From a virus (taxonomy: Duplodnaviria > Heunggongvirae > Uroviricota > Caudoviricetes), in IMG/VR virus record IMGVR_UViG_3300020049_008481: a DNA stretch of 16,998 nucleotides; one strand, 5' to 3'. The stretch's first letter is position 1, and the number at the start of each line of letters is the position of its first letter. Shown one piece after another: positions 3,242 through 16,139 of this stretch. The translations under genes were made by a program, and so were the position numbers. The notes below the pieces were generated by a model. The model had not been told where the DNA came from and ran no database searches. It saw nothing but the letters and a program-made list of their open reading frames with translations.

Positions 3242-3481
3242 ATGAATACCCTCGTCCCGTTCCTCGTCCAGACCGTCCACACCGAGAAGGGCAACACCCT
3301 CTCCGGTGAGACGGCGAAGCGCCAGGTGCCGTCCAGCCGTGTGGTCATGGCCACCAGCAAGAAGCTGGCCATCGACCTCGCCATCGAGGCGCATCGGGAG
3401 CAGTTCTTCCTCGCCCCGACCGTCTGCATCCTGTCCAACGGATGCTTCGCCAAGCCGAGCCGTGTCCCGGTTCCGGCCTGA
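3242..3481 (+). CDS. Hypothetical protein, 79 aa
   Basis: AAGGAG RBS before the ATG at 3242 and strong GC3 bias. The ORF track's upstream start at 3206 is unlikely. Confidence 0.85.
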   Translation: MNTLVPFLVQTVHTEKGNTLSGETAKRQVPSSRVVMATSKKLAIDLAIEAHREQFFLAPTVCILSNGCFAKPSRVPVPA

Positions 3482-3635
3482 CCGCAAGCTGCGGTTGGAA
3501 GCAGCACGCAACATCCGTAAGGCGACCGACCCAAACTTCGGCAAGCGTCGTCCGACTGCCTTGGATGTGAACAAGTCCAGGGCTTTCATGGACAAGAACG
3601 CCTGTCGAAGCCGATTCAGCAAGAACTGGGAGTAG
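3462..3635 (+). CDS. Small basic hypothetical protein, 57 aa (weak ArfA-like resemblance)
   Basis: GTG start overlapping the upstream gene. It fills the gap 3481-3640 and has phage-like codon use. The start position is uncertain. Confidence 0.55.
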   Translation: MSRFRPDRKLRLEAARNIRKATDPNFGKRRPTALDVNKSRAFMDKNACRSRFSKNWE

Positions 3636-3639
3636 AGTC

Positions 3640-3795
3640 ATGGATGAAGAAGAAGCCCTTCAGATCCTCATCGAAGCAGCCAGCAGCCACGCCTACTACC
3701 TCGATTCCAGGGGTTACAAGGAGTTCTCTGGCTTCCGGCAGGAGATGGAACGTATCCACCAGGCGATCAGCGTGATCGAGAGGAACCTGTCATGA
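3640..3795 (+). CDS. Hypothetical protein, 51 aa (MDEEEALQIL...)
   Basis: Open frame translated by hand, with an ATGA overlap to the next gene. Confidence 0.75.
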   Translation: MDEEEALQILIEAASSHAYYLDSRGYKEFSGFRQEMERIHQAISVIERNLS

Positions 3796-3941
3796 CAACC
3801 AAGACGTTCACCTGCACGGAAGGTCATGAGTCATGGTCCCCGAAGCAGCCCAGCAAGTGCCCACACGCCCCGAAGGGCGTACCGTGCAAGGCCACTCTGA
3901 GCCAGACGGGTGGCCCAGGAAGCCGTGGAGGCAAGTCATGA
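3792..3941 (+). CDS. Small putative Zn-ribbon protein, 49 aa (C-x3-H...C...C)
   Basis: ATGA overlaps at both ends; MTTKTFTCTEGHESW...KCPH...PCKA. Confidence 0.75.
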   Translation: MTTKTFTCTEGHESWSPKQPSKCPHAPKGVPCKATLSQTGGPGSRGGKS

Positions 3942-4240
3942 GCCGCAGGCTTCATCCCGACATGCTCCGTTCGCTCATCGGGGGCGGTGTCGCTGTCGTC
4001 ACCACCCCCATCACGTTCTCGATGCTCGTAGCATCCCTGCTCAACGGGAACACGCTGCTCGGGATCGTAGCCCTGCTCGGATTCACTCTCCAGTGTATCG
4101 GGATCGCTGCCCCATTCATCACCTGGGGCAACGGTGACGTGTGGATAGTCGAACGAACTGCCCGCCAGAAGGCACGAGACGAACTGGCTGCAACACTTCA
4201 GCCAGTTGTGATCGACCCATCACACTACGTGGGGCCATAA
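3938..4240 (+). CDS. Membrane protein, 100 aa, about 2 TM segments
   Basis: The ATGA overlap gives a start at 3938. Long hydrophobic stretches. Confidence 0.75.
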   Translation: MSRRLHPDMLRSLIGGGVAVVTTPITFSMLVASLLNGNTLLGIVALLGFTLQCIGIAAPFITWGNGDVWIVERTARQKARDELAATLQPVVIDPSHYVGP

Positions 4241-4249
4241 GGAGACATC

Positions 4250-4468
4250 ATGTCTGTGCAAGTGGAAGTCAAAGACGCAAACGGATTCACGACAGGGTTC
4301 GTGGCCGTTGGGACGCTCACCGAACGTGAGCAGTTCCTGCAAGCACGAGACTTGCGGGAAGGCGAAACATCCAGAGAAACCACTGGCCTCGTCCGGTCCT
4401 ACCGGATGAATGGCAACTGGGACATCTTCCGTGACGGGAAATACCTGTTCACATACTGGACCGGATAG
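4250..4468 (+). CDS. Hypothetical protein, 72 aa
   Basis: AAGGAG RBS and codon bias. Confidence 0.85.
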   Translation: MSVQVEVKDANGFTTGFVAVGTLTEREQFLQARDLREGETSRETTGLVRSYRMNGNWDIFRDGKYLFTYWTG

Positions 4469-4477
4469 GAGAGATTC

Positions 4478-4750
4478 TTGTCAGCAGACAACTACATCCT
4501 CATTCGCAACCATCATGGTGGGCTGCTTACCACGATGGAATCCTTCTCTGCCGATGAACCATCAGATGCGGAAGAAGCATGGCAGCGTGCGCTCTCTGAC
4601 AAGTCCAGGTTCGCAGATGGATTCTTCAACCTGTCCGAGCAGGCCGAAGATTGGGTGGACTACCTGTATGATGATTACGATGATCATGGGGTGTTCATCG
4701 AGTACGGTCCTGATTGGCAAACCAATGACAGAAAGGACTCATTCACATGA
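4478..4750 (+). CDS. Acidic hypothetical protein, 90 aa (TTG start)
   Basis: AGGAGAG RBS and an ATGA overlap with the next gene. Confidence 0.8.
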   Translation: MSADNYILIRNHHGGLLTTMESFSADEPSDAEEAWQRALSDKSRFADGFFNLSEQAEDWVDYLYDDYDDHGVFIEYGPDWQTNDRKDSFT

Positions 4751-5086
4751 GTTACCATGTAGCAACGCACAAGGCAGACGACATCGTTGTCCGTGATGGC
4801 ACAGTGACTGCCCTGGGTGTCACTCGGCATCTAGCAAAGCCACCGGCAATGCCCGTGATCGGCAAAGATTTCTGGGTTGTTGTTCGCAGCCCGTGGGGAC
4901 CCAGCCAGTTCAACCTGGGTCGAGTGGTGGGTTTCCCCCGGTGCGCGGCACGAACGTGCCCAACCCACTGTCAAGCCCAAGCCGGTCAAGCCCGCCAGGC
5001 CACAGTTCAAGTTCGGACTCCCCACTGGCATTATCGGTCGGGACACGCTGGCAGATCGCCTGCTGGCAGGAACCTTCCCAGCCTGA
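4747..5086 (+). CDS. Hypothetical protein apparently split by a +1 frameshift at TTTCCCCC (4932-4939)
   Basis: After 4939 the phage-typical codon usage moves to the +1 frame, which ends at TGA 5084-5086 overlapping an ATG at 5086. Confidence 0.55.
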
Positions 5087-5331
5087 TGGCAGCATGTCTG
5101 AGTGCCAGGGCGGTCACTCTTGCCCTACGTCACAAGTTCGAAGGTGCAGAAGAACGTACCTACACGGTCATCTGTCCGAGCGGTTGGTCCAAGTCAACTT
5201 TCCTCAAGTACGTGCGGAGATACCATCCACATGAGACTGCAAGGATCGTAGAATGGCCTCAGCCGAGCCAGTGGCTTGTGAACCCTGACGGGTACGAGAA
5301 CTACAGAACAGGAACAGGATGGACTGAATGA
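5086..5331 (+). CDS. Hypothetical protein, 81 aa (MAACLSARAV...)
   Basis: TGATG coupling at 5084-5088 and an ATGA overlap with the phosphoesterase. It forms the 3' part of the track's 194-aa ORF. Confidence 0.6.
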   Translation: MAACLSARAVTLALRHKFEGAEERTYTVICPSGWSKSTFLKYVRRYHPHETARIVEWPQPSQWLVNPDGYENYRTGTGWTE

Positions 5332-5897
5332 GCAACATCTTCTACACCTCGGATCTTCACTTCTCACACACCAACATCCTCACCTACTGCAATCGCCCTT
5401 GGGACAGCGTCCTCGAGATGAACGAGGGGCTGATTGACAACTGGAACAGCGTCGTTGGTGCAGATGACATCACCTACATCATCGGTGATGTGTGTATGGG
5501 CCGACGTGATGAGACTGTCCCGTTGGTGTCCCGGCTGAACGGACGCAAGATCCTGATCCCTGGGAACCACGATGACTGCCATCCCATGTACGCTTCCCGG
5601 AACAACTTTGTGAGGCGTTGTGTGTTGTACTCTGAGCACATGGAGATTACAGAAGTGCAGGGAGTTATTGACACGCCCCCTGTAGCTTCAGTATGTCACT
5701 TCCCTTTCGCTGGGTCAGGTGACCACACAGACGAGGAACGCTACACGGAATGGCGTCCAGTAGACCACGGCCAATGGCTGATCCACGGTCATATCCATGA
5801 CCTATGGAAGCAGAATGGCCGCATGATCAACGTAGGTGTGGACGTTTGGGATTACCGCCCTGTCCACACCGATCAGCTCTTGGAGTTGATGAGCTAG
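5328..5897 (+). CDS. Calcineurin-like metallophosphoesterase
   Basis: Motifs SDLHFSH, GDV, GNHD, CH and HGHIH appear in canonical order. Confidence 0.93.
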   Translation: MSNIFYTSDLHFSHTNILTYCNRPWDSVLEMNEGLIDNWNSVVGADDITYIIGDVCMGRRDETVPLVSRLNGRKILIPGNHDDCHPMYASRNNFVRRCVLYSEHMEITEVQGVIDTPPVASVCHFPFAGSGDHTDEERYTEWRPVDHGQWLIHGHIHDLWKQNGRMINVGVDVWDYRPVHTDQLLELMS

Positions 5898-5909
5898 AAA
5901 GGCAACAAC

Positions 5910-6632
5910 ATGACAACCCAGTTCTTTGAAGTTGGTGGATGTGTCAGGGATTCCCTCCTTGGCCTGGAATCCAACGATGTAGATTTCACCGTTGTTGGCC
6001 CTGCCAGCTTCGATGATTTCCATGCAGAACTCACAGGTATGGGATTTCAAATCTTCGAGTCCCGTCCCGAGTTCTTCACAATCAGGGCCAAGGTTCCTGA
6101 CTCGATGCCTGAACTTCGTGCCAGGACTCGGGTTGCTGACTTCGTACTGGCCCGTAGGGACGGACCTTCCTCGGACGGTAGACGGCCTGACTTCACCGTT
6201 CCAGGGAATCTGTTCGATGACCTAGACAGGCGTGACTTCACGGTCAACGCTATGGCTCGTGGACTTGACGGTGTTCTCCATGACCCCTTCAATGGGCAAG
6301 AGGACCTAGCGAACAGGACTCTACGGTTCGTTGGTGTTGCTGCTGTGAGGATCGAAGAAGATGGCTTGCGTGTCCTTCGTGGGCTGCGGTTCATGGTCAC
6401 GAAGAGCCTGACGCCCACTCCTGAGACATTTCGCGACTTGCAGTCGGTGTTTGCAGCCGAAATGCTTGGCTGTGTGTCCAAGGAGCGTAGACGTGAGGAA
6501 CTGAACAAGATGTTGGCGTTCGATACGATGACATCTTTCGAGCTTCTTGCGAGCCTGCCCACTATCACTGTCGAGGCTATCCTTGCAGGTGGGCTTCGAC
6601 TCAAGGCTACGATGGAAGAAGGTTCGTTCTAA
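5910..6632 (+). CDS. cca: tRNA nucleotidyltransferase (class II, CCA-adding/poly(A) polymerase family), compact with no HD domain
   Basis: VGGCVRDSLLG..DVDF, DLDRRDFTVNAMA, DPFNGQEDL, EDGLRVLRGLRF, SKER..EEL. Confidence 0.92.
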   Translation: MTTQFFEVGGCVRDSLLGLESNDVDFTVVGPASFDDFHAELTGMGFQIFESRPEFFTIRAKVPDSMPELRARTRVADFVLARRDGPSSDGRRPDFTVPGNLFDDLDRRDFTVNAMARGLDGVLHDPFNGQEDLANRTLRFVGVAAVRIEEDGLRVLRGLRFMVTKSLTPTPETFRDLQSVFAAEMLGCVSKERRREELNKMLAFDTMTSFELLASLPTITVEAILAGGLRLKATMEEGSF

Positions 6633-7003
6633 TGAGTCAAGCTGGTTACAAGTCTTGTGGGGGATGCGGTCGAATGTTCAAGATCGCATCCCCCATCGAG
6701 ATGACAGTTCTCGCCTCCCATGAATGTGAATGGGATGATGAGAAGTTCAACGAATACGAGAAGCTGCTGACAGAAATGCCTGGGACGCCCCTCACATTCC
6801 TCCAGTTCAAGCAAGCCATAGCTTCCAGGCCACGACCTGACGGTCAGCGTGAAGGTCAATGGGTGATGAACTCGCTATGTGATGTTCGTCCAGACCTTTA
6901 CAGGAGGGTCACTGGTGCTGTCATTGACCCGTTCCATGTGGATCACAAACTGTGGCAGTTCTGGGCGTGGCTCGAAAGTCATTGGGAGGAAGGATGTTCC
7001 TGA
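6632..7003 (+). CDS. Hypothetical protein, 123 aa, with an N-terminal CxxC...HxC
   Basis: TAATG coupling and a coherent ORF. Confidence 0.8.
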   Translation: MSQAGYKSCGGCGRMFKIASPIEMTVLASHECEWDDEKFNEYEKLLTEMPGTPLTFLQFKQAIASRPRPDGQREGQWVMNSLCDVRPDLYRRVTGAVIDPFHVDHKLWQFWAWLESHWEEGCS

Positions 7004-7158
7004 AACACACGCAAAGCGACATCGGTACATCTGACACTTGGCAACGTCAATGGAAGTTCTGGCGCATCCAGGTAAAGATAGTTGTCTATCGGCATCGGCA
7101 TTCCGGTAGTTCAGATCGCTGGGTATTTCAGCCCCATTTCATCTACGACCGAAAGTAA
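6994..7158 (+). CDS. Hypothetical protein, 54 aa
   Basis: GGAGGAAGG before the ATG at 6994. Confidence 0.6.
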   Translation: MFLKHTQSDIGTSDTWQRQWKFWRIQVKIVVYRHRHSGSSDRWVFQPHFIYDRK

Positions 7159-7165
7159 CTGAAAC

Positions 7166-7291
7166 CTGAAACCTAACCGTTTCTACGGGAAATGCACAAC
7201 CTGCCATAACCCAGTTCCTGCCAACAAAGGCTTCATCAAAGTCTTAGGCGGTAGGTTCCTGGTCCTATGTTCCAAATGTAAAGGGGAATAA
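7166..7291 (+). CDS. Small CxxC...CxxC Zn-finger protein, 41 aa, apparent CTG start
   Basis: (L)KPNRFYGKCTTCHNPVPANKGFIKVLGGRFLVLCSKCKGE*. The stop directly abuts the next ATG, and there is no in-frame ATG/GTG/TTG upstream of the first CxxC. Confidence 0.6.
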   Translation: MKPNRFYGKCTTCHNPVPANKGFIKVLGGRFLVLCSKCKGE

Positions 7292-7525
7292 ATGTACCTT
7301 CGTGACCGTTACTGGATCAGCATAAACCGATCCAAGCTCATCCTGAGCTACCACAAGCTGGACGGTGTTCGGCTGCTGTGGATAGGGCCACTGTTCCTGT
7401 CCATCCAGTCGAAGAAGTCCACTGTCCAAGGAGTCAACAAGCTTCTTCTCTCCGTGGCGTTGCTCAGTTTCTGCTACCTCATGTGGCAGATTGTCCGTAT
7501 CCCGTTCCTTTACCCAACCAACTAA
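7292..7525 (+). CDS. Hypothetical membrane protein, 77 aa
   Basis: AAGGGG RBS and a hydrophobic C-terminal segment. Confidence 0.65.
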   Translation: MYLRDRYWISINRSKLILSYHKLDGVRLLWIGPLFLSIQSKKSTVQGVNKLLLSVALLSFCYLMWQIVRIPFLYPTN

Positions 7526-7538
7526 GAAAGGCAACAAC

Positions 7539-7805
7539 ATGACCTATAGGATGCAAACCTACAAGGCCCGTCAGGATCAGAACAAGATCATGATGGACAA
7601 TCTGGTTCCAGAAACCCGGCTGTTCGGTGTGATGCGTTCTGTTCCGATCAAGTTGCGCCGTGGGCGTTACGTGCTGGAGCAGTTGCTGGTGCGTGCACCG
7701 TCCGCTGCTGAGGCTGGACGCATCGCTGACGAGCACATCATCGACCTCAAGTTGGAGTATTGGGGCGAGAAGCATGGTCTTGACGTGACGACGTACCCGG
7801 CATGA
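7539..7805 (+). CDS. Hypothetical protein, 88 aa
   Basis: AGAAAGG RBS identical to the leader of the 5910 gene, plus codon bias. Confidence 0.85.
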   Translation: MTYRMQTYKARQDQNKIMMDNLVPETRLFGVMRSVPIKLRRGRYVLEQLLVRAPSAAEAGRIADEHIIDLKLEYWGEKHGLDVTTYPA

Positions 7806-7886
7806 GCGGCAGGTATGAGACAGTTGGGAGCCATTCAGCCGACTGGCTGGAAGGCTGCGTCAGTCAAGTGACTAAGGGAGAGTAGT

Positions 7887-8033
7887 ATGCAACAGTTTCT
7901 TGTAGTTCTGGAATGCCCAGAGGATCGTGACGTGGCAGACATTGACGATGCCTGCCGTCAAGCGAACGAGTTTCTAGCAGGTCCGAGAGGCGCATTTCGG
8001 GTTCGTCCAGTTTCTGAGATAATCGCAGCTTGA
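7887..8033 (+). CDS. Hypothetical protein, 48 aa
   Basis: AAGGGAG RBS and a TTGA overlap with the next ORF. Confidence 0.7.
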   Translation: MQQFLVVLECPEDRDVADIDDACRQANEFLAGPRGAFRVRPVSEIIAA

Positions 8034-8191
8034 CAGCTAACACTTGTACCTGTAAATGTGGCGGCGACCTGTTCAAGATCGGGACTAAGCAATACCTACA
8101 TCTTGGCTCTAGACAAGAAAAATGTCATCCTTATCATGTGAACAGTGGTAAGGCAACGCCAAAGGTCATAGAGAATCGCAGAAGGAGGTAA
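8030..8191 (+). CDS. Small Cys/His-rich basic protein, 53 aa (TTG start)
   Basis: CTCKCGG...H...CHPYH; it fills the gap and overlaps the previous stop. Confidence 0.6.
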   Translation: MTANTCTCKCGGDLFKIGTKQYLHLGSRQEKCHPYHVNSGKATPKVIENRRRR

Positions 8192-8194
8192 GAA

Positions 8195-8390
8195 ATGCGA
8201 GAATTCCTTTGAAGGGTTCTTTATCGTATTTGGCCTAATAGCCTTTATAGTACTCTTATCGTTCGGGCTAGCTTGGATGCTTCCTGAAACAACCAGTCGT
8301 TATACTGACAACTGTATTGTCATCCATCATAAAGACTGGTTCTCAGCACAGAATGATAGTCCTGTCAAATACTGTGAGGTAGAAGAATGA
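8195..8390 (+). CDS. Small membrane protein requiring a +1 frameshift at CTT-TGA (8207-8212), or a pseudogene/sequence error
   Basis: AGGAGG RBS followed by ATG CGA GAA TTC CTT TGA. The +1 frame continues for about 60 codons with a TM helix and ends in an ATGA overlap with 8387. Confidence 0.6.
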
Positions 8391-8857
8391 GTAACCCAAA
8401 CTTTCCCAATGCCCTACTCAAGCATGAGCTAGCCCCTGGTCTAAGGATCAAGGTAATCAACGAACCATCTCAGTACAGTCACAAGCGCCATGAGTTTGAG
8501 GCAGTTGTGGTTGGCCCAGAGTGGATTACCTCGGGTGGAACTACATGGTACGGGGTTGCTGGATATAACCCTGACAAGCAGTTCCTAATCATGTTCACTA
8601 TTCCAGGTTTCTGTGCCAGACTTGGCAAGCCTGGCACAGTGCTTGATGCACTCCACTTCACTGATTTTGGGGCAGCCCCTTACAAGGGAGATGAGAGAGA
8701 ATGGTGGAATCCCTCTAACCACATCGAGAGTGTCCCAGCAACACGTGCCGACGCCATGAAGGAACTAGCTAAGAACCTGACTCCGGTTGTTGCTGATCCT
8801 GCTTGGCTCGTAGAACCATTTTCATGTGAGTGTTTCCAACCAGAAGTGTGCCCATAA
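8387..8857 (+). CDS. Hypothetical protein, 156 aa
   Basis: Long ORF, GAGG RBS, ATGA overlap. Confidence 0.85.
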   Translation: MSNPNFPNALLKHELAPGLRIKVINEPSQYSHKRHEFEAVVVGPEWITSGGTTWYGVAGYNPDKQFLIMFTIPGFCARLGKPGTVLDALHFTDFGAAPYKGDEREWWNPSNHIESVPATRADAMKELAKNLTPVVADPAWLVEPFSCECFQPEVCP

Positions 8858-8973
8858 GCCAAAACGGCGGCTTCGGAACTATGTTCACGCCATAGTTAGT
8901 CGCAGACAGAAGTGACATCATAGTCTAAACAAATCGTTTAGGCTAAACCAAACAAACAGGAGAAACAAGCAAC

Positions 8974-9315
8974 ATGCCTACTGCAACTGGTATTGAAGTC
9001 ATCGCCATCAACGGAGTTGACTATGTTCGTGCCGACTCTATCCCCACGGTTGTCCCACCCGATTCGTCCATTCGCATCGTTGTGCTACAGCGTGGATGGG
9101 TTGCTGTTGGTTACTACACCGAGGACGGGGATCGAGTTCTGCTCGATAACGCATCAGTAATCCGCCGATGGGGCACTACGAAGGGGCTTGGTGAACTGGT
9201 CAACGGTCCAACCAGCAGGACCATACTGGAACCCGCTGGCCATATTGAAGCACCCAGTCTTGGGGTTGTATTGACGATTTCTGTTGATGACTCCAAGTGG
9301 ATTGGTCATCTGTGA
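8974..9315 (+). CDS. DUF6948-like phage protein, 113 aa
   Basis: AGGAG RBS. The pattern IVV..RGWV.VG......V.L.NA..IRRWG...GLGEL..GP resembles the DUF6948-type family, which I recall occurring next to Gly/Tyr-rich repeat genes (not verified by search). Confidence 0.65.
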   Translation: MPTATGIEVIAINGVDYVRADSIPTVVPPDSSIRIVVLQRGWVAVGYYTEDGDRVLLDNASVIRRWGTTKGLGELVNGPTSRTILEPAGHIEAPSLGVVLTISVDDSKWIGHL

Positions 9316-9593
9316 TCGGCCTGATAGGGTCGTTGGGAGAAGATGCCCAAGTTCTAATCGGCTACGGCAACGGCAACGGCAACGGCTACGGCTACGGCGA
9401 CGGCTACGGCTACGGCGACGGCAACGGCTACGGCTACGGCGACGGCAACGGCAACGGCAACGGCTACGGCGACGGCGACGGCGACGGCAACGGCAACGGC
9501 AACGGCTACGGCTACGGCAACGGCAACGGCGACGGCGACGGCGACGGCTACGGCAACGGCTACGGCGACGGCAACGGCAACGGCAACGGCTAG
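9312..9593 (+). CDS. Glycine-rich (G-Y/N/D)38 repeat protein, ~93 aa
   Basis: GTGA overlap with the upstream stop and 38 consecutive GGC-NAC hexamers. Confidence 0.75.
   Translation: MIGLIGSLGEDAQVLIGYGNGNGNGYGYGDGYGYGDGNGYGYGDGNGNGNGYGDGDGDGNGNGNGYGYGNGNGDGDGDGYGNGYGDGNGNGNG
9360..9590 (+). repeat. Hexamer tandem repeat GGC(T/A/G)AC x38
   Basis: Read directly from the sequence; only one position per unit varies. Confidence 0.97.
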
Positions 9594-9759
9594 GATGCCT
9601 CTCCTACAAGCGACGACTCCACCTAATACCCCAACATCTACTCTAACCTCGCCCGATGTAGATGAAATCCACATCGTCTTTACCTCCACCTTTCTACAGA
9701 AACGGTGCTGGAGTTCGTGCCATCCGTCTAGAAGAAGATGAGGAAATAGATATCATCTA

Positions 9760-9845
9760 GGGGCGATATTCAAGTCTGGTTCGAAGAAGCATGTCTTATA
9801 AACATGTGGCAATGCCCATCGTGAGTTCAAATCTCACTCGCCCTA
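9760..9845 (+). tRNA. tRNA with anticodon TAT (nominally Ile) and a class II-type long variable arm; no encoded CCA
   Basis: Acceptor GGGGCGA/TCGCCCT plus A73. 3-bp D-stem TTC/GAA. Anticodon arm CATGT-CTTATAA-ACATG. 14-nt variable region containing GGC-AAT-GCC. T-arm GTGAG-TTCAAAT-CTCAC. Confidence 0.85.
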
Positions 9846-9902
9846 CAAAAGCGTAGTCGGCGGAGGCCGATCCTCCCCGGCCCCACTAGACAAGGAGAAA
9901 AC

Positions 9903-10391
9903 ATGATAGGATACACCATCCTCCCAAACGCACAAGCCTACCCAAATGCACTACCCAGCCTGCACAAGTCCCTGAAAGAAGGAATCTCTCACGCAGCTTG
10001 GAAGGGGACCACCAGGACTGCTTTCGATCTTGGTGAAGCTGTTATCAAAATGGCTCACAGCGATGTTAGCGAATCATCTTGGGATGTACCTAGGTTTTAT
10101 GATCGTCTACCAAAGATGCGTTCAGGTGGTGTGTATGACGTTTCATGTCGGGCACAGAACGAGCAGGAGTTAGAAACCTGGCTTCAGCATCCTGACCGAA
10201 CAATCTTCGCTGAAGTTATTGGGTTCTCCCATGATTTCAAATGGCTCATAATGGAGAAATGTGCCCCCGCTGATGATAGCGCATGGGGTAAGGTGGATAA
10301 GTTCGCAAAGTTCAATTTCTCAGACCTGAATACACCGAACATGGGTATCAACAGAGATGGCGACACTGTAATGATCGACTACGCCCGATAG
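9903..10391 (+). CDS. Minimal protein-kinase-like (PKL) fold protein, 162 aa
   Basis: GTTRTAF (Gly-loop-like), VIK (beta3 Lys), QNEQE (alphaC Glu), LIME hinge, DLNTPN catalytic loop, IDYA (DFG equivalent). Confidence 0.7.
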   Translation: MIGYTILPNAQAYPNALPSLHKSLKEGISHAAWKGTTRTAFDLGEAVIKMAHSDVSESSWDVPRFYDRLPKMRSGGVYDVSCRAQNEQELETWLQHPDRTIFAEVIGFSHDFKWLIMEKCAPADDSAWGKVDKFAKFNFSDLNTPNMGINRDGDTVMIDYAR

Positions 10392-10401
10392 GAGAAAATG
10401 A

Positions 10402-10857
10402 ATGACTGTTGTAACTGTTGGGATTGGAATCCCCGGAAGTGGTAAGACCACGTTCCTCGGTAAAGATCTGAATGAAAGTTTCTACATTTGTGCGGACGAT
10501 ATCCGTAAGGAACTTACAGGCAATGCCAGTGACCAGGGTCGTAATAATGAAGTTTGGGAGCTTCTTTATGAGCGGGTTCACGACATCCTGATGGGTGAAG
10601 ATAGCCTCGTCATTGACGTAACAAATACACGACGTAGTGACCGACGTAAAATGATAGAGTTCTGTCACGAACATGGTGCAGAAGTTCACGGCATCTGGTT
10701 TGACACCCCACTCGATGTTTGCAAGGAACGGAATGCCCTGCGTGAACGGGTTGTTCCAGAACATGTACTAGACCGTATGCACAGGCAGTTGGTTGAGTGG
10801 CCGCCTTCGCTTGAGGATGGGTTCGATCGACTGCACAAGATCACGGAGATTACATAG
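10402..10857 (+). CDS. P-loop kinase, AAA_33 / polynucleotide-kinase-like
   Basis: Walker A GIPGSGKTT, DDIR, D.TN....R, and C..RN..R.R.VP. Confidence 0.9.
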   Translation: MTVVTVGIGIPGSGKTTFLGKDLNESFYICADDIRKELTGNASDQGRNNEVWELLYERVHDILMGEDSLVIDVTNTRRSDRRKMIEFCHEHGAEVHGIWFDTPLDVCKERNALRERVVPEHVLDRMHRQLVEWPPSLEDGFDRLHKITEIT

Positions 10858-10864
10858 CTGACAT

Positions 10865-10938
10865 GCCCCTATAGTCCAATTGGCAGAGACAGGAGACTTA
10901 AAATCTCTACAGTGTGGATTCGAGTTCCACTAGGGGTA
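10865..10938 (+). tRNA. trnL: tRNA-Leu(TAA), short variable loop, no encoded CCA
   Basis: Acceptor GCCCCTA/TAGGGGT plus A. Anticodon arm GGAGA-CTTAAAA-TCTCT. T-arm GTGGA-TTCGAGT-TCCAC. Confidence 0.9.
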
Positions 10939-10970
10939 CGAAGAATGGGGTTCAGTTGAGCAATCAGCAT

Positions 10971-11126
10971 ATGTTAGGGAAATGTGGTAAACCTTTCTGT
11001 GGCGACTGCTGTTCAGCCTACCCACAAGGCTCCGGTCGCAGAAACAAGCGCATACCTAAAAAGATATTCAAACAACGTGAGAAGCGTTGGTGGCAGAAAG
11101 AAGAACGTGATGAAGCGAATTCGTAA
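10971..11126 (+). CDS. Small basic Cys-rich protein, 51 aa
   Basis: CGKPFCGDCC...; Lys/Arg-rich. Confidence 0.6.
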   Translation: MLGKCGKPFCGDCCSAYPQGSGRRNKRIPKKIFKQREKRWWQKEERDEANS

Positions 11127-11256
11127 GGTTCTGGAATTCCCTGTAACAATGGCAGAGCGAACCGTCCTGGTTCCCGAGCCAGAGCAGCCAGAACATATCT
11201 ACTTCAATATTCCGGTAGATGGTTCTTTGGCTGCAACATACCGACCGATCTACTAA
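11110..11256 (+). CDS. Hypothetical protein, 48 aa
   Basis: ATG at 11110 overlaps the previous ORF's end and fills the gap. Confidence 0.6.
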   Translation: MKRIRKVLEFPVTMAERTVLVPEPEQPEHIYFNIPVDGSLAATYRPIY

Positions 11257-11267
11257 GGAGAAACACA

Positions 11268-11486
11268 ATGCCTGTATTCAAGGTGACAAAGGAAGTCGAA
11301 GTAACAGTTACGTTTCCGAATGATGGGAACGTGGAAGATGCACTAACGGCGGTTGCTGAATGGCAACAGTCAGGCCAGACTAGTGGGCAAGTCAATCCTC
11401 GATTTGTTGGAAGAAACCAAGTAGAGGGTGGGGATCGTTATTTGGTAGAAGTGCTAAATAGCAATACCAGCGTGAACGTACTCTAG
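11268..11486 (+). CDS. Hypothetical protein, 72 aa
   Basis: AAGGAG RBS. Confidence 0.8.
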   Translation: MPVFKVTKEVEVTVTFPNDGNVEDALTAVAEWQQSGQTSGQVNPRFVGRNQVEGGDRYLVEVLNSNTSVNVL

Positions 11487-11500
11487 GTGCGTCTTCTCTG

Positions 11501-11797
11501 ATGCGCTGCCCGGTAGCTGGCTGTGGTGAACCTTGGAGCACCAATGACCTGAACGAATGGTCACTGAAAAATCTCCATTCACACCCTGAATCTGCGGAAG
11601 CACAGTTTGTCGCACATACAGCGTTCAGGCTGAACGGATGTTTGTTGTTCAACAAGCCTCATATGATGGGGTTGGAAATAGTGTCCAAGGGTGACTATCC
11701 AGGGATTCCAGCGAGCATGGCTTATAATGCTCTTATAGAGATGAAAGGCAATGACTTCGATGGAATCGAAATGTTTCTGAAAGAATTGGGGCTATAA
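11501..11797 (+). CDS. Hypothetical protein, 98 aa, with an N-terminal CPxxxC
   Basis: The stop directly abuts the ligase start. Confidence 0.7.
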   Translation: MRCPVAGCGEPWSTNDLNEWSLKNLHSHPESAEAQFVAHTAFRLNGCLLFNKPHMMGLEIVSKGDYPGIPASMAYNALIEMKGNDFDGIEMFLKELGL

Positions 11798-12901
11798 GTG
11801 AAAATCTATGACCTGCTAGACGTAGAGCTTTTAGGGTCACACGTAGAAGCACGGCTCGTCAGCGAGACTGCCCACCCAACTGAGCCACTAGTCATCTACA
11901 ACTACACTCAAACCTGTCAATACACTGGTAGATGGGATGATGTGACCAAGCGATGCCGTGGGCTGATCGTCAACAGCGAAACCCAAGAGGTTGTGGCTAG
12001 ACCATTTTCAAAGTTTTTCAACCTCGGTGAACATCACGGTGGCACCCCAGCAGCAGGACCACTCAACTTACAGCCACCGCTCAGAGTCTATGACAAGATG
12101 GATGGTTCCCTAGGAATTGCGTATAGGCTGCCATCAACGGGGGCGTTAGCGTGGGCCACACGTGGATCATTCTTTTCAGAGCAGGCTGCATGGGCCACTG
12201 AATACTGGAACGAACGCTACGACATGTGCGAATTGGATGAGAATTTCACTTGGTTAGCTGAAATCATCTATCCCCAAAATCGTATCGTCGTAGACTACGG
12301 TAACTATGCCAGCCTGGTATTGTTGTCAATCATTGACACCGAAACAGGCTTGCATCATGAAACCCTAGAGTTGAAGGCACAATGGCCTGTTGACCATGTG
12401 GATTTCTTCGGTGAAGCCACCGATCCTGAGACTGTCGATCCTAACGATCGTACCGGCGCTGAGGGTTACGTTATCCTTTCAGGTGACGGGGTTACCAGAG
12501 TCAAGGTTAAGGCTGATGAATATGTCAGGCTGCACAGGCTGGTGACTGGTGTTTCTTCCCGTACAATCTGGGAGATGCTTTCCAGTGGCGCACCGTTGGA
12601 GGAACTGTATGAGAAAGTGCCTGATGAGTTCTCTGATTGGGTTAACCAAACAGTAGACTCGCTTAACAATCAGTTTCGTGAGATTGTTGAAACAGTTACG
12701 TATGATTTCATCGAAGTTCTTCACCGCACCGATCATCTTACAAGAGAGCAAGAGGTTGACCGTAGGCAATTCGCTGAGGTAGCCAAAGAGACGCAGTATC
12801 CTGGCCTGTTGTTTGCTCTACTTGACAACAAGGATATTTCTGCTAGAATCTGGAAGATGGTAAAACCTGAGTGGACTTTACCATTTAGGAAGGATGAGTA
12901 A
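11798..12901 (+). CDS. RNA ligase, T4 Rnl1-like
   Basis: KFFN, motif I KMDGSLG, ATRGSF, AEII.PQNRIVVDY, EGYV, VKVK...Y. Confidence 0.93.
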   Translation: MKIYDLLDVELLGSHVEARLVSETAHPTEPLVIYNYTQTCQYTGRWDDVTKRCRGLIVNSETQEVVARPFSKFFNLGEHHGGTPAAGPLNLQPPLRVYDKMDGSLGIAYRLPSTGALAWATRGSFFSEQAAWATEYWNERYDMCELDENFTWLAEIIYPQNRIVVDYGNYASLVLLSIIDTETGLHHETLELKAQWPVDHVDFFGEATDPETVDPNDRTGAEGYVILSGDGVTRVKVKADEYVRLHRLVTGVSSRTIWEMLSSGAPLEELYEKVPDEFSDWVNQTVDSLNNQFREIVETVTYDFIEVLHRTDHLTREQEVDRRQFAEVAKETQYPGLLFALLDNKDISARIWKMVKPEWTLPFRKDE

Positions 12902-13371
12902 TGACTGTATCTGTTATCCAGGGTAATCTGTTTGAGCAAGACGTTGACGCTATAGCTCATGGTTGCAATTGTCGTGGGGTAATGGGGGCGGGTATTGCTT
13001 ACATCTTCAAGCGACGTTATCCCCAAATGTTTAAGGACTACAAGCAACGTGTTGAGCGTGGGTTATTTATCCCAGGTGATATTTTCTTCTACGGAGGTGG
13101 CGGTGAAGTAAATTGGGGAGAATGGCAAAGTCACCCTTCGGTTTACAACCTTGCAACCCAACTTAATCCTGGCAGAAATGCAACTCTCGATGCTATAGAG
13201 ACCAGTCTCTACAGAATGGAGAAGCACGCTAAGGCTATAGGGATAAGAACAATTGCTATTCCTCGCATTGGGTCAGGCATTGGCGGTCTTCCAGTTGCTG
13301 CCATAGAGAATGTAGTTCGGGAAGTATTTGAAGATAGTGAAATCCACCTAACGATCGTTGACTATCAGTAA
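12901..13371 (+). CDS. Macrodomain protein (ADP-ribose/Appr-1''-p processing; TARG1/DarG-like signature)
   Basis: GNLF..D..AIAHGCNCRGVMGAGIA, YNLATQ, IAIPRIGSGIGGL. Translationally coupled to the ligase (TAATG). Confidence 0.9.
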   Translation: MTVSVIQGNLFEQDVDAIAHGCNCRGVMGAGIAYIFKRRYPQMFKDYKQRVERGLFIPGDIFFYGGGGEVNWGEWQSHPSVYNLATQLNPGRNATLDAIETSLYRMEKHAKAIGIRTIAIPRIGSGIGGLPVAAIENVVREVFEDSEIHLTIVDYQ

Positions 13372-13479
13372 TCTTTGGTTGGTTGGGGATTCCGATTTAA
13401 TAAGGTGGTCGGATAAGGGCTACAAGGGGATGAGGTAGCTCAAGCTCGCTAGCATACCGAGTGAAACGTATGCTACCAT

Positions 13480-13554
13480 GCCCCTGTAGCTCAGCCAGGA
13501 AAGAGCGGCAAACTTCTAATTTGCTGGTCGGGAGTTCAAATCTCTCCGGGGGCA
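13480..13554 (+). tRNA. trnR: tRNA-Arg(TCT), no encoded CCA
   Basis: Acceptor GCCCCTG/CGGGGGC plus A. Anticodon arm GCAAA-CTTCTAA-TTTGC. T-arm GGGAG-TTCAAAT-CTCTC. Confidence 0.95.
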
Positions 13555-13557
13555 CTT

Positions 13558-13752
13558 ATGATTAAAGCAACCCAAGCAGCATCACAAAGAACAAAAAACC
13601 GTGTACGAGAACACACCGACCATTGGGAACACACACAAACCAGAAACAACATCGTTTCATTTCCTGGACAGACAGTAGCAGAGTTTCGCTGCCCAGAGTC
13701 TTGTGGTTGGTTTGGATGGGTTCCCCTAAACGAAATAGATTATGGAGAATAA
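13558..13752 (+). CDS. Hypothetical protein, 64 aa, with a C-terminal CPxxC
   Basis: The ORF fills the gap. There is no room for an RBS after the tRNA. Confidence 0.6.
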   Translation: MIKATQAASQRTKNRVREHTDHWEHTQTRNNIVSFPGQTVAEFRCPESCGWFGWVPLNEIDYGE

Positions 13753-13753
13753 C

Positions 13754-13921
13754 ATGCCAGATTGGAAAACGCTTTGCACTAGGCTGAATCATGCAGTCGT
13801 TGAACTTGAGGCAGCAACAAATGCTCAGGAACGAATTGCTTGGGCTGCAGAAGTGCAGGCTCTCGTCGCTCTCAAAGAGAGTTACAGGTCTAGCGTTGGC
13901 GGCGAACGGTGGGGGTGGTAA
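13754..13921 (+). CDS. Hypothetical helical protein, 55 aa
   Basis: GGAG RBS; translated by hand as MPDWKTLCTRLNHAVVELEAA... Confidence 0.7.
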   Translation: MPDWKTLCTRLNHAVVELEAATNAQERIAWAAEVQALVALKESYRSSVGGERWGW

Positions 13922-13923
13922 TC

Positions 13924-14277
13924 ATGGAACTTGGTGATGTTTGCGAGGAATGCAACCTAGAATGCGTGGAAGTTGCTCCTGGTGGTTTAGACTGCCGCGA
14001 AATGGGGGTAGATCCATGCTTGGGACGTATGAAGGGGGTCTTGGTTGCATGCTGCGGGCATGGTAAGATGAAGGGGTACATGAATCTGGAAAGAGAAGAT
14101 GGGGGTGTCACCTCCATCGGGTTCCGCCCCATTGAGGTGACTCATAGGAAAATCATTACTGTAGAGGAACAGCTAGAACTAACTGGCCTATCATTAGATG
14201 ACATAGGGCCGGATTTCCCGGAATCCCGCTTAACGGATCGGGTTTTTTCCGTACCACATTGGGAACATGGCTTCTAA
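13924..14277 (+). CDS. Cys-rich hypothetical protein, 117 aa (DPC...GV..ACCGHG motif)
   Basis: GGGGTGG RBS before the ATG at 13924; putative metal-binding motif. Confidence 0.75.
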   Translation: MELGDVCEECNLECVEVAPGGLDCREMGVDPCLGRMKGVLVACCGHGKMKGYMNLEREDGGVTSIGFRPIEVTHRKIITVEEQLELTGLSLDDIGPDFPESRLTDRVFSVPHWEHGF

Positions 14278-14286
14278 AGGAATAAA

Positions 14287-14433
14287 ATGGTACTTAGCCA
14301 AGTTAAAGACCTAGAAACCCTAGAAATAGAATGGGCTAGGCATCATCTGTGTTCCATGGATGACAAAGTTCGTAAGGAAGCAAACCGCATCCTAGATAAG
14401 TATGATGCAACACCGTTCCTAACTAGGATCTGA
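14287..14433 (+). CDS. Hypothetical protein, 48 aa
   Basis: AAGGA RBS and an open frame up to the tRNA-Tyr. Confidence 0.65.
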   Translation: MVLSQVKDLETLEIEWARHHLCSMDDKVRKEANRILDKYDATPFLTRI

Positions 14434-14441
14434 AAATTCAT

Positions 14442-14528
14442 GAGTCGGTATGCAAGAGGCTGAAGCAAGCGGACTGTAAATCCGTGACGTAAGATACATC
14501 GTAGGTTCAAATCCTACTCGGCTCACCA
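14442..14528 (+). tRNA. trnY: tRNA-Tyr(GTA), CCA encoded
   Basis: Acceptor GAGTCGG/TCGGCTC plus ACCA. Anticodon arm GCGGA-CTGTAAA-TCCGT. Long variable arm. T-arm GTAGG-TTCAAAT-CCTAC. Confidence 0.95.
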
Positions 14529-14547
14529 ACTAAAGAAAGAAAACTAA

Positions 14548-14919
14548 ATGACACTAACAAGAGACGAAATCAAGGATCAACTCATCGCAATTTGTGAGGC
14601 CAATCCTAATACAGTCAACCCTGTAGATTATGACAAACAATGCTTATATGAGCTAGTTGTCAAAGGGTCGACAGGTGTTCGTGTAGAACACTGTCTTTTG
14701 GGGCAGCTTGCAGTCAACAATGGCTGGCCTCTAGGTAATTTAACGAGAACATACGGTTGTGATGATACTGATTACAAGTACGCATTTGCCAGTGTCAAGG
14801 CTTATGTAAATGAGTGGCCTATTGACCCCGATGACTTAGAGTTTCTGGATATAGTCCAGGCAGACGCTGATAGAGGTGTCGAGTGGGGCACTCTTGTAGA
14901 AAGGATTGAAAGATTATGA
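14548..14919 (+). CDS. Hypothetical protein, 123 aa
   Basis: Long ORF with an ATGA overlap to the next gene. Confidence 0.8.
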   Translation: MTLTRDEIKDQLIAICEANPNTVNPVDYDKQCLYELVVKGSTGVRVEHCLLGQLAVNNGWPLGNLTRTYGCDDTDYKYAFASVKAYVNEWPIDPDDLEFLDIVQADADRGVEWGTLVERIERL

Positions 14920-15044
14920 CACCTAGAGAAGCAATAGAAATTCTTGTTCATGAGGTTGAATTAACAATAGACCTAGATGACGAACTCCTAGAAGCAGTTA
15001 ACCTAGTCAAGTCGTTTTTCCTGGAAGGAAACCAATGTTCATAG
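14916..15044 (+). CDS. Hypothetical acidic protein, 42 aa (MTPREAIEIL...)
   Basis: ATGA overlap; translated by hand. Confidence 0.6.
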   Translation: MTPREAIEILVHEVELTIDLDDELLEAVNLVKSFFLEGNQCS

Positions 15045-15286
15045 CCATATTACTCACCATCTGGACCTTAGCCGTATGTAGAATATGTTATAAGGTTGGC
15101 TGGGTTGAGGGTTTCAACACTTTCAAGAATGAATCATCCGTTAGTGAGGATAACATGACTGACCTTAACGCGCATATCAGACAGGAAGATACGGCATCCG
15201 GTGCTATTCGTAAGGAGTCTAAGAGGCTTCCTTGGGTGTGGCGACGTATCGCTGAGATTAACCGACGACAAGATGAAAGAAAATGA
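15035..15286 (+). CDS. Hypothetical protein, 83 aa, with an N-terminal TM/signal segment
   Basis: GGAAGG RBS and a hydrophobic N-terminus. Confidence 0.65.
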   Translation: MFIAILLTIWTLAVCRICYKVGWVEGFNTFKNESSVSEDNMTDLNAHIRQEDTASGAIRKESKRLPWVWRRIAEINRRQDERK

Positions 15287-15346
15287 ATCCTGACCAAGCC
15301 CTAATCGAATCAGGACTATACGCCAAACCCGAATGGGAGGAAGAAA

Positions 15347-15553
15347 ATGAGCCTACTGACAGTCGCAACAGAAACCGCCAACATGGGGTTTCTGGAAGAA
15401 TTCCGAAGCATCGTAACTGACCCTGCCCACATTCTTGCAGAAGGAGTATGGGAACTTGTTACAGGATTCCTCCTGTACCCTGTCGTAGTCAAAGTGTGGC
15501 ATTACGCCATTCTTAAGCATGATAAAGAACATCACCATGAAACTAGGATATGA
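15347..15553 (+). CDS. Small membrane protein, 68 aa, with a His-rich C-terminus
   Basis: GGGAGG RBS, a TM segment, and HDKEHHH. Confidence 0.7.
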   Translation: MSLLTVATETANMGFLEEFRSIVTDPAHILAEGVWELVTGFLLYPVVVKVWHYAILKHDKEHHHETRI

Positions 15554-15603
15554 TGCTACTCTATTACGTTATCAACTTCTACTGTGCAGCCCGACTAGAT
15601 TGG

Positions 15604-15612
15604 TGCTATAAT
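15604..15612 (+). promoter_or_regulatory. Possible extended -10 promoter (TGCTATAAT)
   Basis: Perfect TGnTATAAT with a poor -35. It overlaps the ATG at 15611. Confidence 0.3.
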
Positions 15613-15997
15613 GTTCTCCTACCCTACGTTCAAGTGCAGTCATGGCCACGTTTTTACAACCTTCGGCGTTCATGATCATTGTTTGAAAGTAATTAACGGC
15701 AAACATTGTGATGGTATTGTAATAAGAGAGGCTACACAAGTATTCATGCAAGATGAAAAGAGAAAAACATGCCCATCACCATCGATGACTTCCCCGGCGA
15801 ACCCGGCACCGCCACCATCGCCACCCTGCTCGCCCGCCCCGACGCCCACGACCTACGGGTGCACTCTGTCGAAGGCTACGACTGCGGCTACGACTCATGG
15901 AACGTCTGGCCCCCCAGCCTCATCGTCCACGTCGTCATCCCCGACCCGCCGCCACCCGCCGCCGTCGCCGCCCGCGAGATGGCGTCAATCTCAGTGA
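15611..15997 (+). CDS. Zn-ribbon-like protein (F.C..GH...C...C) whose frame runs on into the GC-rich insert
   Basis: The first ~50 aa resemble 3792-3941 in Cys/His spacing. The Pro/Ser-rich tail is the shadow of the overlapping 15769 gene. Confidence 0.5.
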   Translation: MFSYPTFKCSHGHVFTTFGVHDHCLKVINGKHCDGIVIREATQVFMQDEKRKTCPSPSMTSPANPAPPPSPPCSPAPTPTTYGCTLSKATTAATTHGTSGPPASSSTSSSPTRRHPPPSPPARWRQSQ

Positions 15998-16134
15998 AGA
16001 ACCCGCCCGGGCGACCGGCCCTGCTGATCCGTCTCAGCTACCGACGGTGGGTTGCCCATCCCCGGCTCCATTGGGCGAGTAAGTCGTTCTTCGATGAGGT
16101 CGGCCAGTGGGTCGCTCATCGTCCTGCCCACTGA
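15769..16134 (+). CDS. GC-rich hypothetical protein, 121 aa, with a Pro-rich linker
   Basis: Strong GC3 bias that contrasts with its neighbours. Confidence 0.7.
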   Translation: MPITIDDFPGEPGTATIATLLARPDAHDLRVHSVEGYDCGYDSWNVWPPSLIVHVVIPDPPPPAAVAAREMASISVKNPPGRPALLIRLSYRRWVAHPRLHWASKSFFDEVGQWVAHRPAH

Positions 16135-16139
16135 CGCTC

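What the first reader, a model, noticed from the sequence alone, without database searches (positions are those of the whole stretch)
9760..9845. tRNA with UAU anticodon on a class II (Leu/Ser/Tyr-type) body: possible identity/anticodon mismatch
UAU-anticodon tRNA-Ile is rare in bacteria, which normally read AUA with lysidine-modified CAU, and tRNA-Ile is normally class I. This one has a 3-bp D-stem, a large D-loop, a 14-nt variable region with a mini-stem, a G1:U72 pair and A73. Bacterial LeuRS relies on A73 and tRNA shape rather than the anticodon. By inference it might be charged with Leu or another non-Ile residue and recode or mistranslate AUA, or be a TilS-independent AUA decoder resistant to host tRNA nucleases. 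An unmodified U34 could also misread AUG.
Basis: partly seen in the sequence, partly recalled or inferred. Interest (0 to 1): 0.72.

Follow-up and report, generated by a model that had tools for sequence, protein, structure and literature searches.

The report
Phage AUA tRNA with extra hairpin
This is a real phage tRNA for the rare isoleucine codon AUA that carries a small extra hairpin; it only looks like a leucine, serine or tyrosine tRNA, lacks key marks those charging enzymes use, and shows no sign of changing the genetic code.

Summary
The tRNA at 9760-9845 is real, built as described, and identical in two JGI assemblies. Leu recoding is not supported. The gene has G15:C48 and U20a, where Leu tRNAs have A15:U48 (74/83) and A20a (70/75). 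It has G1:U72, where Tyr (20/20) and Ser (40/42) have G1:C72, and it lacks G73 (Ser) and U35 (Tyr). Its acceptor and T stems group with short-armed phage Ile(UAU) tRNAs: 10-12 of 20 nearest neighbours, a level reached by 0 of 193 long-armed Leu/Ser/Tyr tRNAs. It aligns to them with a 9-nt hairpin inserted in the variable loop and 2 extra D-loop bases. ATA codons align with Ile in this phage (8 sites) and in 30 loci with long-armed UAU tRNAs (614 sites; 57% Ile, 9% Leu). Variable regions of 10 nt or more occur in about 5% of phage UAU tRNAs; this exact arm is a singleton. Best reading: a TilS-independent AUA decoder charged with Ile, perhaps weakly. It lacks all three minor IleRS determinants and has a Ser-like D arm, so poor charging or low-level mischarging is not excluded. 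Charging was not tested. The scan noted long-armed UAU tRNAs on other DNA before; this one lacks their GAU loop.

The parts
9760..9845 (+). tRNA gene, anticodon UAU, 86 nt to the discriminator A73, no encoded CCA
   Evidence: identical in L221 and L223
9760..9766 (+). acceptor stem 5' strand, pairing with 9838-9844; G1:U72, G4:C69; with the T stem, of the phage class I Ile(UAU) type
9769..9788 (+). enlarged D arm: 3-bp UUC/GAA stem, A13.A22, G15 (9774), G18G19 (9778-9779), U20a; nearest D arms are Ser-type; weak in folding (pair probability about 0.04)
9790..9806 (+). anticodon arm, loop CU-UAU-AA (anticodon 9797-9799; U36-A37-A38, the context for t6A37 by general knowledge)
9807..9820 (+). 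14-nt variable region: U44, a 9-nt hairpin GGC-AAU-GCC (9808-9816), then CAUC48; aligns as an insertion into a 5-nt loop ending in AUC
9821..9837 (+). T arm, identical to those of class I phage Ile(UAU) tRNAs such as L055 and L082
10865..10938 (+). tRNA-Leu(UAA) with a SHORT variable loop but A15:U48, A20a and A73; internal control showing that Leu identity here does not ride on a long arm
13480..13554 (+). tRNA-Arg(UCU)
14442..14525 (+). tRNA-Tyr(GUA), class II, G1:C72, encoded CCA follows
5910..6632 (+). CCA-type tRNA nucleotidyltransferase (PF01743); could complete the 3' end of the three CCA-less tRNAs (inference)
10402..10857 (+). AAA_33 PNK-like kinase; 1 ATA site used in the codon test
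11798..12901 (+). T4 Rnl1-type RNA ligase; best cultured matches are Arthrobacter and Streptomyces phages
12901..13371 (+). macrodomain protein with 5 ATA codons, used in the codon test

Best explanation
A phage tRNA-Ile(UAU) of the common short-armed phage type that has gained a 9-nt hairpin in its variable loop and 2 bases in its D loop. The steps below are inferred; none was shown biochemically. It is transcribed with the surrounding tRNA and RNA-repair region, trimmed, and given CCA by the host or phage nucleotidyltransferase. Host IleRS charges it with Ile through A35, U36, (t6)A37, A38 and A73. This works best if the host enzyme tolerates U34, as Arg/Lys-905-type IleRSs are shown to do and eukaryote-like IleRSs are suggested to do. 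It then reads AUA without lysidine/TilS and, with the UAA and UCU tRNAs, tops up rare A-ending codons. G1:U72, G15:C48 and A73 should keep TyrRS, LeuRS and SerRS off it. The extra arm is most likely tolerated rather than an identity switch. Charging may be inefficient.
For: Acceptor+T stems (positions not used in my search patterns): 10-12 of the 20 nearest of 1,242 tRNAs are short-armed Ile(UAU), hypergeometric p about 5e-5; 0/102 long Leu, 0/63 Ser and 0/28 Tyr reach 10, against 28/158 short UAU. It aligns to L044, L055, L079 and L116 with only an insertion in V and 2 nt in D (56 of 75 positions match L044, hand count). G1:U72 occurs in 34/91 short UAU tRNAs, 0/20 Tyr and 0/42 Ser; A15:U48 in 74/83 Leu; A20a in 70/75 Leu; determinants per PMC9976931. 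ATA behaves as Ile in this phage (8 columns; probability 0.004 for Leu sites to score as high, 0.31 for Ile sites to score as low) and in 30 loci with long-armed UAU tRNAs (614 sites: Ile 0.57, Leu 0.09; ATY 0.60/0.09; Leu codons 0.09/0.64). The phage uses ATA in 26 of 193 Ile codons, mostly in the tRNA-bearing half (22/128 against 4/65, p 0.04). Streptomyces phage Tomas carries a 74-nt Ile(tat) beside Leu(taa), plus Arg(tct). Mycobacteria have eukaryote-like IleRS, and M. mucogenicum expresses a probably phage-derived tRNA-Ile(TAT) (PMC6582537).
Against: It has none of the three minor E. coli IleRS stem elements (C4:G69, U12 pair, C29:G41); only 9/91 short UAU tRNAs lack all three. A whole-body profile fits no isotype well: Ser +3.7, short Ile-UAU -4.0, Tyr -8.0, long Leu -21.2 bits. 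The nearest D arms are Ser tRNAs. The cloverleaf (-21.5 kcal/mol) is less stable than a fold (-25.2) in which CAU of the V region displaces the anticodon stem; anticodon-stem pair probability is about 0.45, against about 0.6-0.9 for the window's other tRNAs. E. coli-type IleRS (Trp905) charges UAU tRNA poorly (PMC3575796) and the host is unresolved. The rise in ATA is part of a general rise in A-ending codons (CTA, GTA too), so it is weak evidence. No orthologue was found to show selection on the arm.
Confidence: 0.62

Rival explanations
1. A poorly charged, drifting or decoy tRNA: made and folded, but rarely used in translation. It could be a decaying copy, or a substrate or decoy for host tRNA nucleases beside the phage's RNA-repair genes.
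For: Longest D region among 128 UAU tRNAs and no minor IleRS elements; competing fold and weak D stem; singleton arm. Six allo-tRNA(UAU) species were inactive in E. coli (PMC5389517). Kinase, ligase and nucleotidyltransferase genes lie nearby.
Against: All four stems are intact, with no mismatched pair apart from G1:U72 and A13.A22; the universal positions are kept; Rfam scores it above the window's own tRNA-Tyr, 53.8 against 49.1 bits. The anticodon matches a rare codon that the phage uses.
Confidence: 0.24
2. One reading: the class II-like body is charged with Leu (or Ser/Tyr) and puts that residue at some AUA codons, as nematode nev-tRNA-Ile(UAU) can in vitro.
For: A73, G18G19 and a long V region are present. 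E. coli LeuRS ignores anticodon and V sequence. The D arm is Ser-like and the V arm Tyr-sized. Precedent: nev-tRNA-Ile(UAU) is leucylated (PMC3333845). Codon alignments cannot see low-level mischarging, because host tRNA-Ile(LAU) would still read AUA; nev-tRNAs left no proteome trace (PMC4300185).
Against: No A15:U48, no A20a, long-Leu profile -21 bits. No G73, no G1:C72 and only a 3-bp arm with 3 unpaired bases before C48 (Ser). No U35, G34 or G1:C72 (Tyr). The phage's own Leu tRNA has a short arm yet keeps A15:U48 and A20a. ATA aligns with Ile.
Confidence: 0.1
3. The inserted hairpin is a helper: its AAU loop mimics an Ile anticodon and aids IleRS binding, like the GAU-showing arms that earlier notes of this scan describe.
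For: The 3-nt loop reads AAU. A few other long UAU arms in my set contain GAU (L006, L010, L325, L005).
Against: A 3-nt loop on a 3-bp stem is not an anticodon-loop mimic (no 7-nt loop, no U33, no A37/A38). An xAU triplet arises by chance 1 time in 16. No GAU is present, and most arms in my set show other loops such as GAAA, AGCA and AACA.
Confidence: 0.04

Closest known systems
TilS-independent tRNA-Ile(UAU): Mycoplasma mobile tRNA-Ile2 (PMC3575796); Bifidobacterium and Neorickettsia 'Ile3' (10.1101/614032); M. mucogenicum tRNA-Ile(TAT) (PMC6582537); Streptomyces phage Tomas gene 116
   Same: UAU anticodon, A37/A38, A73; AUA remains Ile; carried by phages or horizontally acquired clusters, in Tomas with UAA and UCU tRNAs
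   Different: Tomas gene 116 and most phage copies have 4-5-nt variable loops (I did not check the cellular genes); this one has a 14-nt V region with a hairpin and a 20-nt D region
Bacterial class II tRNAs (Leu, Ser, Tyr)
   Same: 3-bp D stem with a 13.22 mismatch, V region over 10 nt with a stem; arm size and 3-nt loop resemble tRNA-Tyr; D arm nearest to Ser
   Different: lacks A15:U48 and A20a (Leu), G73 and G1:C72 (Ser), U35, G34 and G1:C72 (Tyr); acceptor/T branch groups with Ile(UAU)
Nematode nev-tRNA-Ile(UAU) (PMC3333845, PMC4300185)
   Same: UAU anticodon, long V arm, A73
   Different: eukaryotic, derived from tRNA-Leu(UAA), and read by a LeuRS that recognises the V-arm tip; bacterial LeuRS uses the D/T hinge, which is non-Leu here
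allo-tRNA(UAU) (Mukai et al., PMC5389517)
   Same: UAU anticodon on a long-V body
   Different: allo-tRNAs have 8/4 or 9/3 acceptor/T stems, a long D stem with tetraloop and mostly G73/U73; this one is 7/5 with A73 and a large D loop
GAU-arm phage Ile(UAU) tRNAs
   Same: phage UAU tRNA with an extra hairpin in the V region; no recoding of AUA
   Different: no GAU; a 3-nt loop rather than an anticodon-like loop; 86 nt against 88-99 nt

Membership tests
tRNA-Ile(UAU), TilS-independent | canonical 7/5 cloverleaf with UAU anticodon | tested here: met
tRNA-Ile(UAU), TilS-independent | major IleRS elements A35, U36, A37 (t6A context) and A73; also A38 | tested here: met
   sequence against PMC9976931 section 11; A38 from general knowledge
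tRNA-Ile(UAU), TilS-independent | minor E. coli IleRS stem elements C4:G69, U12 pair, C29:G41 | tested here: not met
   none present; 9/91 short phage UAU tRNAs also lack all three
tRNA-Ile(UAU), TilS-independent | acceptor/T branch related to phage Ile(UAU) tRNAs | tested here: met
   10-12 of 20 nearest neighbours; 0/193 long-armed Leu/Ser/Tyr reach this
tRNA-Ile(UAU), TilS-independent | AUA still means Ile in the genome | tested here: met
   8 sites; 614 sites in other long-arm loci
tRNA-Ile(UAU), TilS-independent | charged with Ile by host IleRS and reads AUA on the ribosome | not testable with these tools
   needs aminoacylation and decoding assays; host unknown
bacterial tRNA-Leu identity | A73 and G18G19 | tested here: met
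   PMC9976931 section 12
bacterial tRNA-Leu identity | A15:U48 and A20a | tested here: not met
   G15:C48 and U20a; Leu set 74/83 and 70/75
bacterial tRNA-Ser identity | G73 and G1:C72 | tested here: not met
   A73 and G1:U72; Ser set has A73 in 0/43 and G1:C72 in 40/42
bacterial tRNA-Ser identity | long V arm and Ser-type D arm | tested here: inconclusive
   D arm nearest Ser, but the V stem is only 3 bp with 3 unpaired bases before C48
bacterial tRNA-Tyr identity | U35 and G1:C72 (with A73) | tested here: not met
   A35, G1:U72; Tyr set G1:C72 20/20
allo-tRNA | 8/4 or 9/3 acceptor branch, tetraloop D arm, G73/U73 | tested here: not met
   7/5, 12-nt D loop, A73
nev-tRNA | descent from tRNA-Leu with LeuRS elements kept in D and V arms | tested here: not met
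   long-Leu profile -21 bits; acceptor/T branch Ile(UAU)-like
GAU-arm phage Ile(UAU) group (scan notes) | second hairpin showing GAU in an anticodon-like loop | tested here: not met
   V loop is AAU, 3 nt; no GAT in the V region

The most novel reading that the evidence does not exclude
A mosaic phage tRNA (Ile-type acceptor/T branch and anticodon loop, Ser/Tyr-type D and V arms) is partly charged by host SerRS or LeuRS and makes AUA ambiguous during infection. This would damage AUA-containing host proteins or diversify phage proteins, at a level that codon alignments cannot see.
Probability: 0.08. Interest if true: 0.8.

Novelty: new variant of a known kind. Interest (0 to 1): 0.3.

Why it matters
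As it stands, modestly. It shows that a long variable arm in a phage tRNA is not by itself a sign of Leu/Ser/Tyr identity: this phage has a long-armed 'Ile' tRNA and a short-armed Leu tRNA about 1 kb apart. I found no paper on long-armed phage Ile(UAU) tRNAs in the searchable library, so the class appears undescribed, although this scan has noted it often. If IleRS charges this tRNA, it is a natural test of how much D- and V-arm change IleRS tolerates and how phages read AUA without TilS. If it were mischarged, it would be a bacterial-side counterpart of nev-tRNAs and would matter much more.

Tried and rejected
No close homologue found: blastn of 50,697 phage records gave only T-arm fragments; two arm-specific patterns in IMG/VR gave 0 hits; a relaxed metagenome pattern gave 4 hits, none with this arm. 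No related phage sharing the gene order or the tRNA. No whole genome is held. The 130.7-kb contig that carries these genes could not be fetched, so aaRS or TilS genes elsewhere in the phage and the host were not checked. Sequencing runs: no RNA holder listed; the three DNA runs had small shares, matching mainly the low-complexity repeat at about 9360-9590, and no listed piece covered the tRNA, so they give no evidence either way. Origin by duplication of the phage's own tRNA-Tyr: similar D start and V end, but rank only 114 of 1,292 on acceptor+T and 9 with D and V included; not supported, not excluded. The Micrarchaeota/Iainarchaeum hits in the genome scan look intron-containing rather than long-armed, and were set aside. 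No sigma-70-like promoter between 8600 and 11000. An 8/4 allo-tRNA fold does not fit. The body profile was too noisy to assign identity by itself: only 46/91 short UAU tRNAs were recovered in leave-one-out. tRNAscan-SE isotype models were not available. All surveys depend on exact patterns (TGGT, CTTATAA, a T-loop motif, V region up to about 21 nt), so longer or divergent arms are under-counted.

Full report
OBSERVATION. The gene is real. ARAGORN calls tRNA-Ile(tat) at 9760-9846. Rfam RF00005 scores 53.8 bits, above the window's own tRNA-Tyr at 49.1. The gene is identical in two JGI assemblies (L221, L223), one of which may be the window's source.

SETTING. The window is part of a phage; the longest contig on record carrying its proteins is 130.7 kb. 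It holds four tRNAs (UAU, UAA, UCU, GUA), a CCA-type nucleotidyltransferase, a PNK-like kinase, an Rnl1 ligase, a metallophosphoesterase and a macrodomain. The host is unresolved. The ligase matches Arthrobacter and Streptomyces phages best and one gene is Rv2632c-like, which points to Actinobacteria. The nucleotidyltransferase and the Leu tRNA match Synechococcus phages first, with actinophages further down the lists.

HOW COMMON IS THE ARCHITECTURE? In the scan that allowed both arm lengths, 5 of 94 unique UAU tRNAs had a variable region of 10 nt or more. Other class I isotypes in the loci I hold show 17 of 812 (difference p 0.07). Targeted scans gave 35 other long-armed UAU tRNAs from viral and metagenome contigs, with 27 different arm sequences; none resembles this arm. 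Long arms therefore recur and are varied, and this particular one is a singleton. The counts are limited by the patterns to variable regions of up to about 21 nt.

WHAT IS THE BODY? It is a mosaic. On the acceptor and T stems, which my search patterns did not constrain, 10-12 of the 20 nearest of 1,242 tRNAs are short-armed phage Ile(UAU) tRNAs (p about 5e-5). None of 102 long Leu, 63 Ser or 28 Tyr tRNAs reaches that count; 28 of 158 short UAU tRNAs do. Aligned to L044, L055, L079 and L116, the gene differs in length only by a 9-nt hairpin inside a 5-nt loop ending in AUC and by 2 extra D-loop bases. An unpaired 13.22 position is already present in 15 of 91 short UAU tRNAs, and G1:U72 in 34 of 91. 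The D arm alone is nearest to two Ser tRNAs, and the V arm is Tyr-sized. A whole-body profile fits nothing well: Ser +3.7, short Ile-UAU -4.0, Tyr -8.0, long Leu -21.2 bits.

WHICH SYNTHETASE? I used the determinants in PMC9976931. LeuRS needs A73, G18G19, A15:U48 and A20a; the last two are missing, whereas 74 of 83 and 70 of 75 Leu tRNAs in my loci have them. The phage's own Leu(UAA) has a short loop but keeps A15:U48 and A20a. TyrRS needs U35 and G1:C72; both are missing (Tyr set 20/20 G1:C72). SerRS favours G73, G1:C72 and the long arm; here there is A73, G1:U72 and a 3-bp stem (Ser set 0/43 A73, 40/42 G1:C72). The strong IleRS elements in the anticodon loop and at 73 are present, but none of the three minor stem elements; only 9 of 91 short UAU tRNAs lack all three. 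U34 is poor for E. coli-type IleRS, good for Arg/Lys-905 types, and suggested to be accepted by eukaryote-like IleRS (PMC3575796). Mycobacteria have the eukaryote-like type, and M. mucogenicum expresses a probably phage-derived tRNA-Ile(TAT) (PMC6582537). By elimination IleRS is the most likely enzyme; this is inference.

IS AUA RECODED? No sign of it. Eight ATA sites in three window genes score as Ile/Val columns (Ile +9.8, Leu +5.5, Met -11, Tyr -12, Ser -18 bits). Eight true Leu sites would score as high with probability 0.004, and eight Ile sites as low with probability 0.31. In 30 loci with long-armed UAU tRNAs, 614 ATA sites align with Ile 57% and Leu 9%, the same as ATT/ATC (60%, 9%) and unlike Leu codons (9%, 64%). 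Met sites show no excess of Ile there (8% against 9% in short-arm loci). This excludes reassignment. It does not exclude low-level mischarging, since host tRNA-Ile(LAU) would still read AUA, and nematode nev-tRNAs are leucylated in vitro yet leave no proteome trace (PMC3333845, PMC4300185). The window's own sample is small.

MECHANISM. Shown: gene structure, ancestry of the acceptor branch, absence of the Leu, Ser and Tyr determinants, and AUA meaning Ile. Inferred: expression, CCA addition, t6A37, charging by IleRS, and AUA decoding without TilS to support genes rich in A-ending codons. ATA makes up 22 of 128 Ile codons after position 8030 against 4 of 65 before (p 0.04), but CTA and GTA rise too, so this is a general shift. 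Confidence 0.62. The main rival is a poorly charged, decaying or decoy tRNA (0.24). For it: the longest D region in the set, a fold 3.7 kcal/mol more stable than the cloverleaf in which CAU of the V region competes with the anticodon stem, and the inactivity of six allo-tRNA(UAU) species (PMC5389517). Mischarging gets 0.10 and an AAU helper arm 0.04. AUG misreading by unmodified U34 is plausible, as seen for M. mobile tRNA on E. coli ribosomes, but is not special to this tRNA. Resistance to host nucleases is a general hypothesis for phage tRNAs (PMC10264068; the main text does not mention Ile) and was not testable.

COMPARISON AND NOVELTY. It most likely works like TilS-independent tRNA-Ile(UAU), such as M. 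mobile Ile2 or gene 116 of Streptomyces phage Tomas, which lies beside Leu(taa). It fails membership of tRNA-Leu, -Ser, -Tyr, allo-tRNA, nev-tRNA and the GAU-arm group noted earlier by this scan. My paper searches found no description of long-armed phage Ile(UAU) tRNAs, but most subscription papers are not searched. Earlier scan notes report similar tRNAs on other DNA (229 notes held my search words); these are unchecked leads, not support.

VERDICT. Observation confirmed; interpretation partly supported; a new variant of a known kind; interest 0.3.

Noticed in passing
L383:8349-8440(+), L386:2525-2616(+), L011:11302-11391(+): UAU tRNAs on Ser-like 7/5 bodies (G73, G1:C72, 19-20-nt V arm with a 5-6-bp stem). 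These are better mischarging candidates than the window's gene. ARAGORN also calls an 86-nt tRNA-Gly(GCC) beside the L386 copy.
   Followed up: partly
L172:641-724(+) (Gammaproteobacteria MAG), L195:5529-5617(+) (Pyrinomonadales MAG): UAU tRNAs with Leu-type features (A15:U48, A73, long V arm) in bacterial genome bins; the profile scores L172 as Leu and L195 as Ser/Leu. No ATA sites were available for a codon test.
   Followed up: partly
window 10865-10938: tRNA-Leu(UAA) has a short variable loop yet keeps A15:U48, A20a and A73; 43 of 147 Leu tRNAs in my loci are short-armed.
   Followed up: partly
L167, L169, L173, L176, L179, L180, L187, L190, L194, L199, L203, L207, L209, L211, L213, L216: Micrarchaeota/Iainarchaeum genomes carry tRNA-Ile(UAU) with what looks like an 11-15-nt intron just 3' of the anticodon loop; ARAGORN often miscalls them as Tyr(ata), Thr or Ser.
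   Followed up: no
L227, L229, L230, L231, L234, L241, L258, L271: A conserved phage UAU tRNA family with a shortened D arm and a 12-nt V hairpin around GAAA.
   Followed up: no
L010: A phage tRNA cluster in which Gln(UUG), Lys(CUU), Lys(UUU) and Trp genes are also 81-89 nt long, besides Ile(UAU).
   Followed up: no
window 2100-16863: A-ending codons rise after about position 8000 (TTA 0/128 to 19/181, AGA 7/118 to 32/138, ATA 4/65 to 22/128). CTA and GTA, which have no matching tRNA in the window, rise too, so the gradient is not specific to the encoded tRNAs.
   Followed up: partly
window 9297-9593: Gly-rich repeat ORF (G-x-G-x-G) just upstream of the tRNA; it attracts spurious read matches, and gene callers place a gene on the opposite strand.
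   Followed up: no
window 9747-9759 and 9856-9891: Small hairpins flank the tRNA: a 5-bp stem ending just before G1, and a GC-rich stem-loop 10 nt after A73 (-17 kcal/mol); possibly processing signals.
   Followed up: no
window 5910-6632: The nucleotidyltransferase is closest to Synechococcus phages B3/B23 (54%) and then Microbacterium phages (43%), while other genes look actinobacterial.
   Followed up: partly
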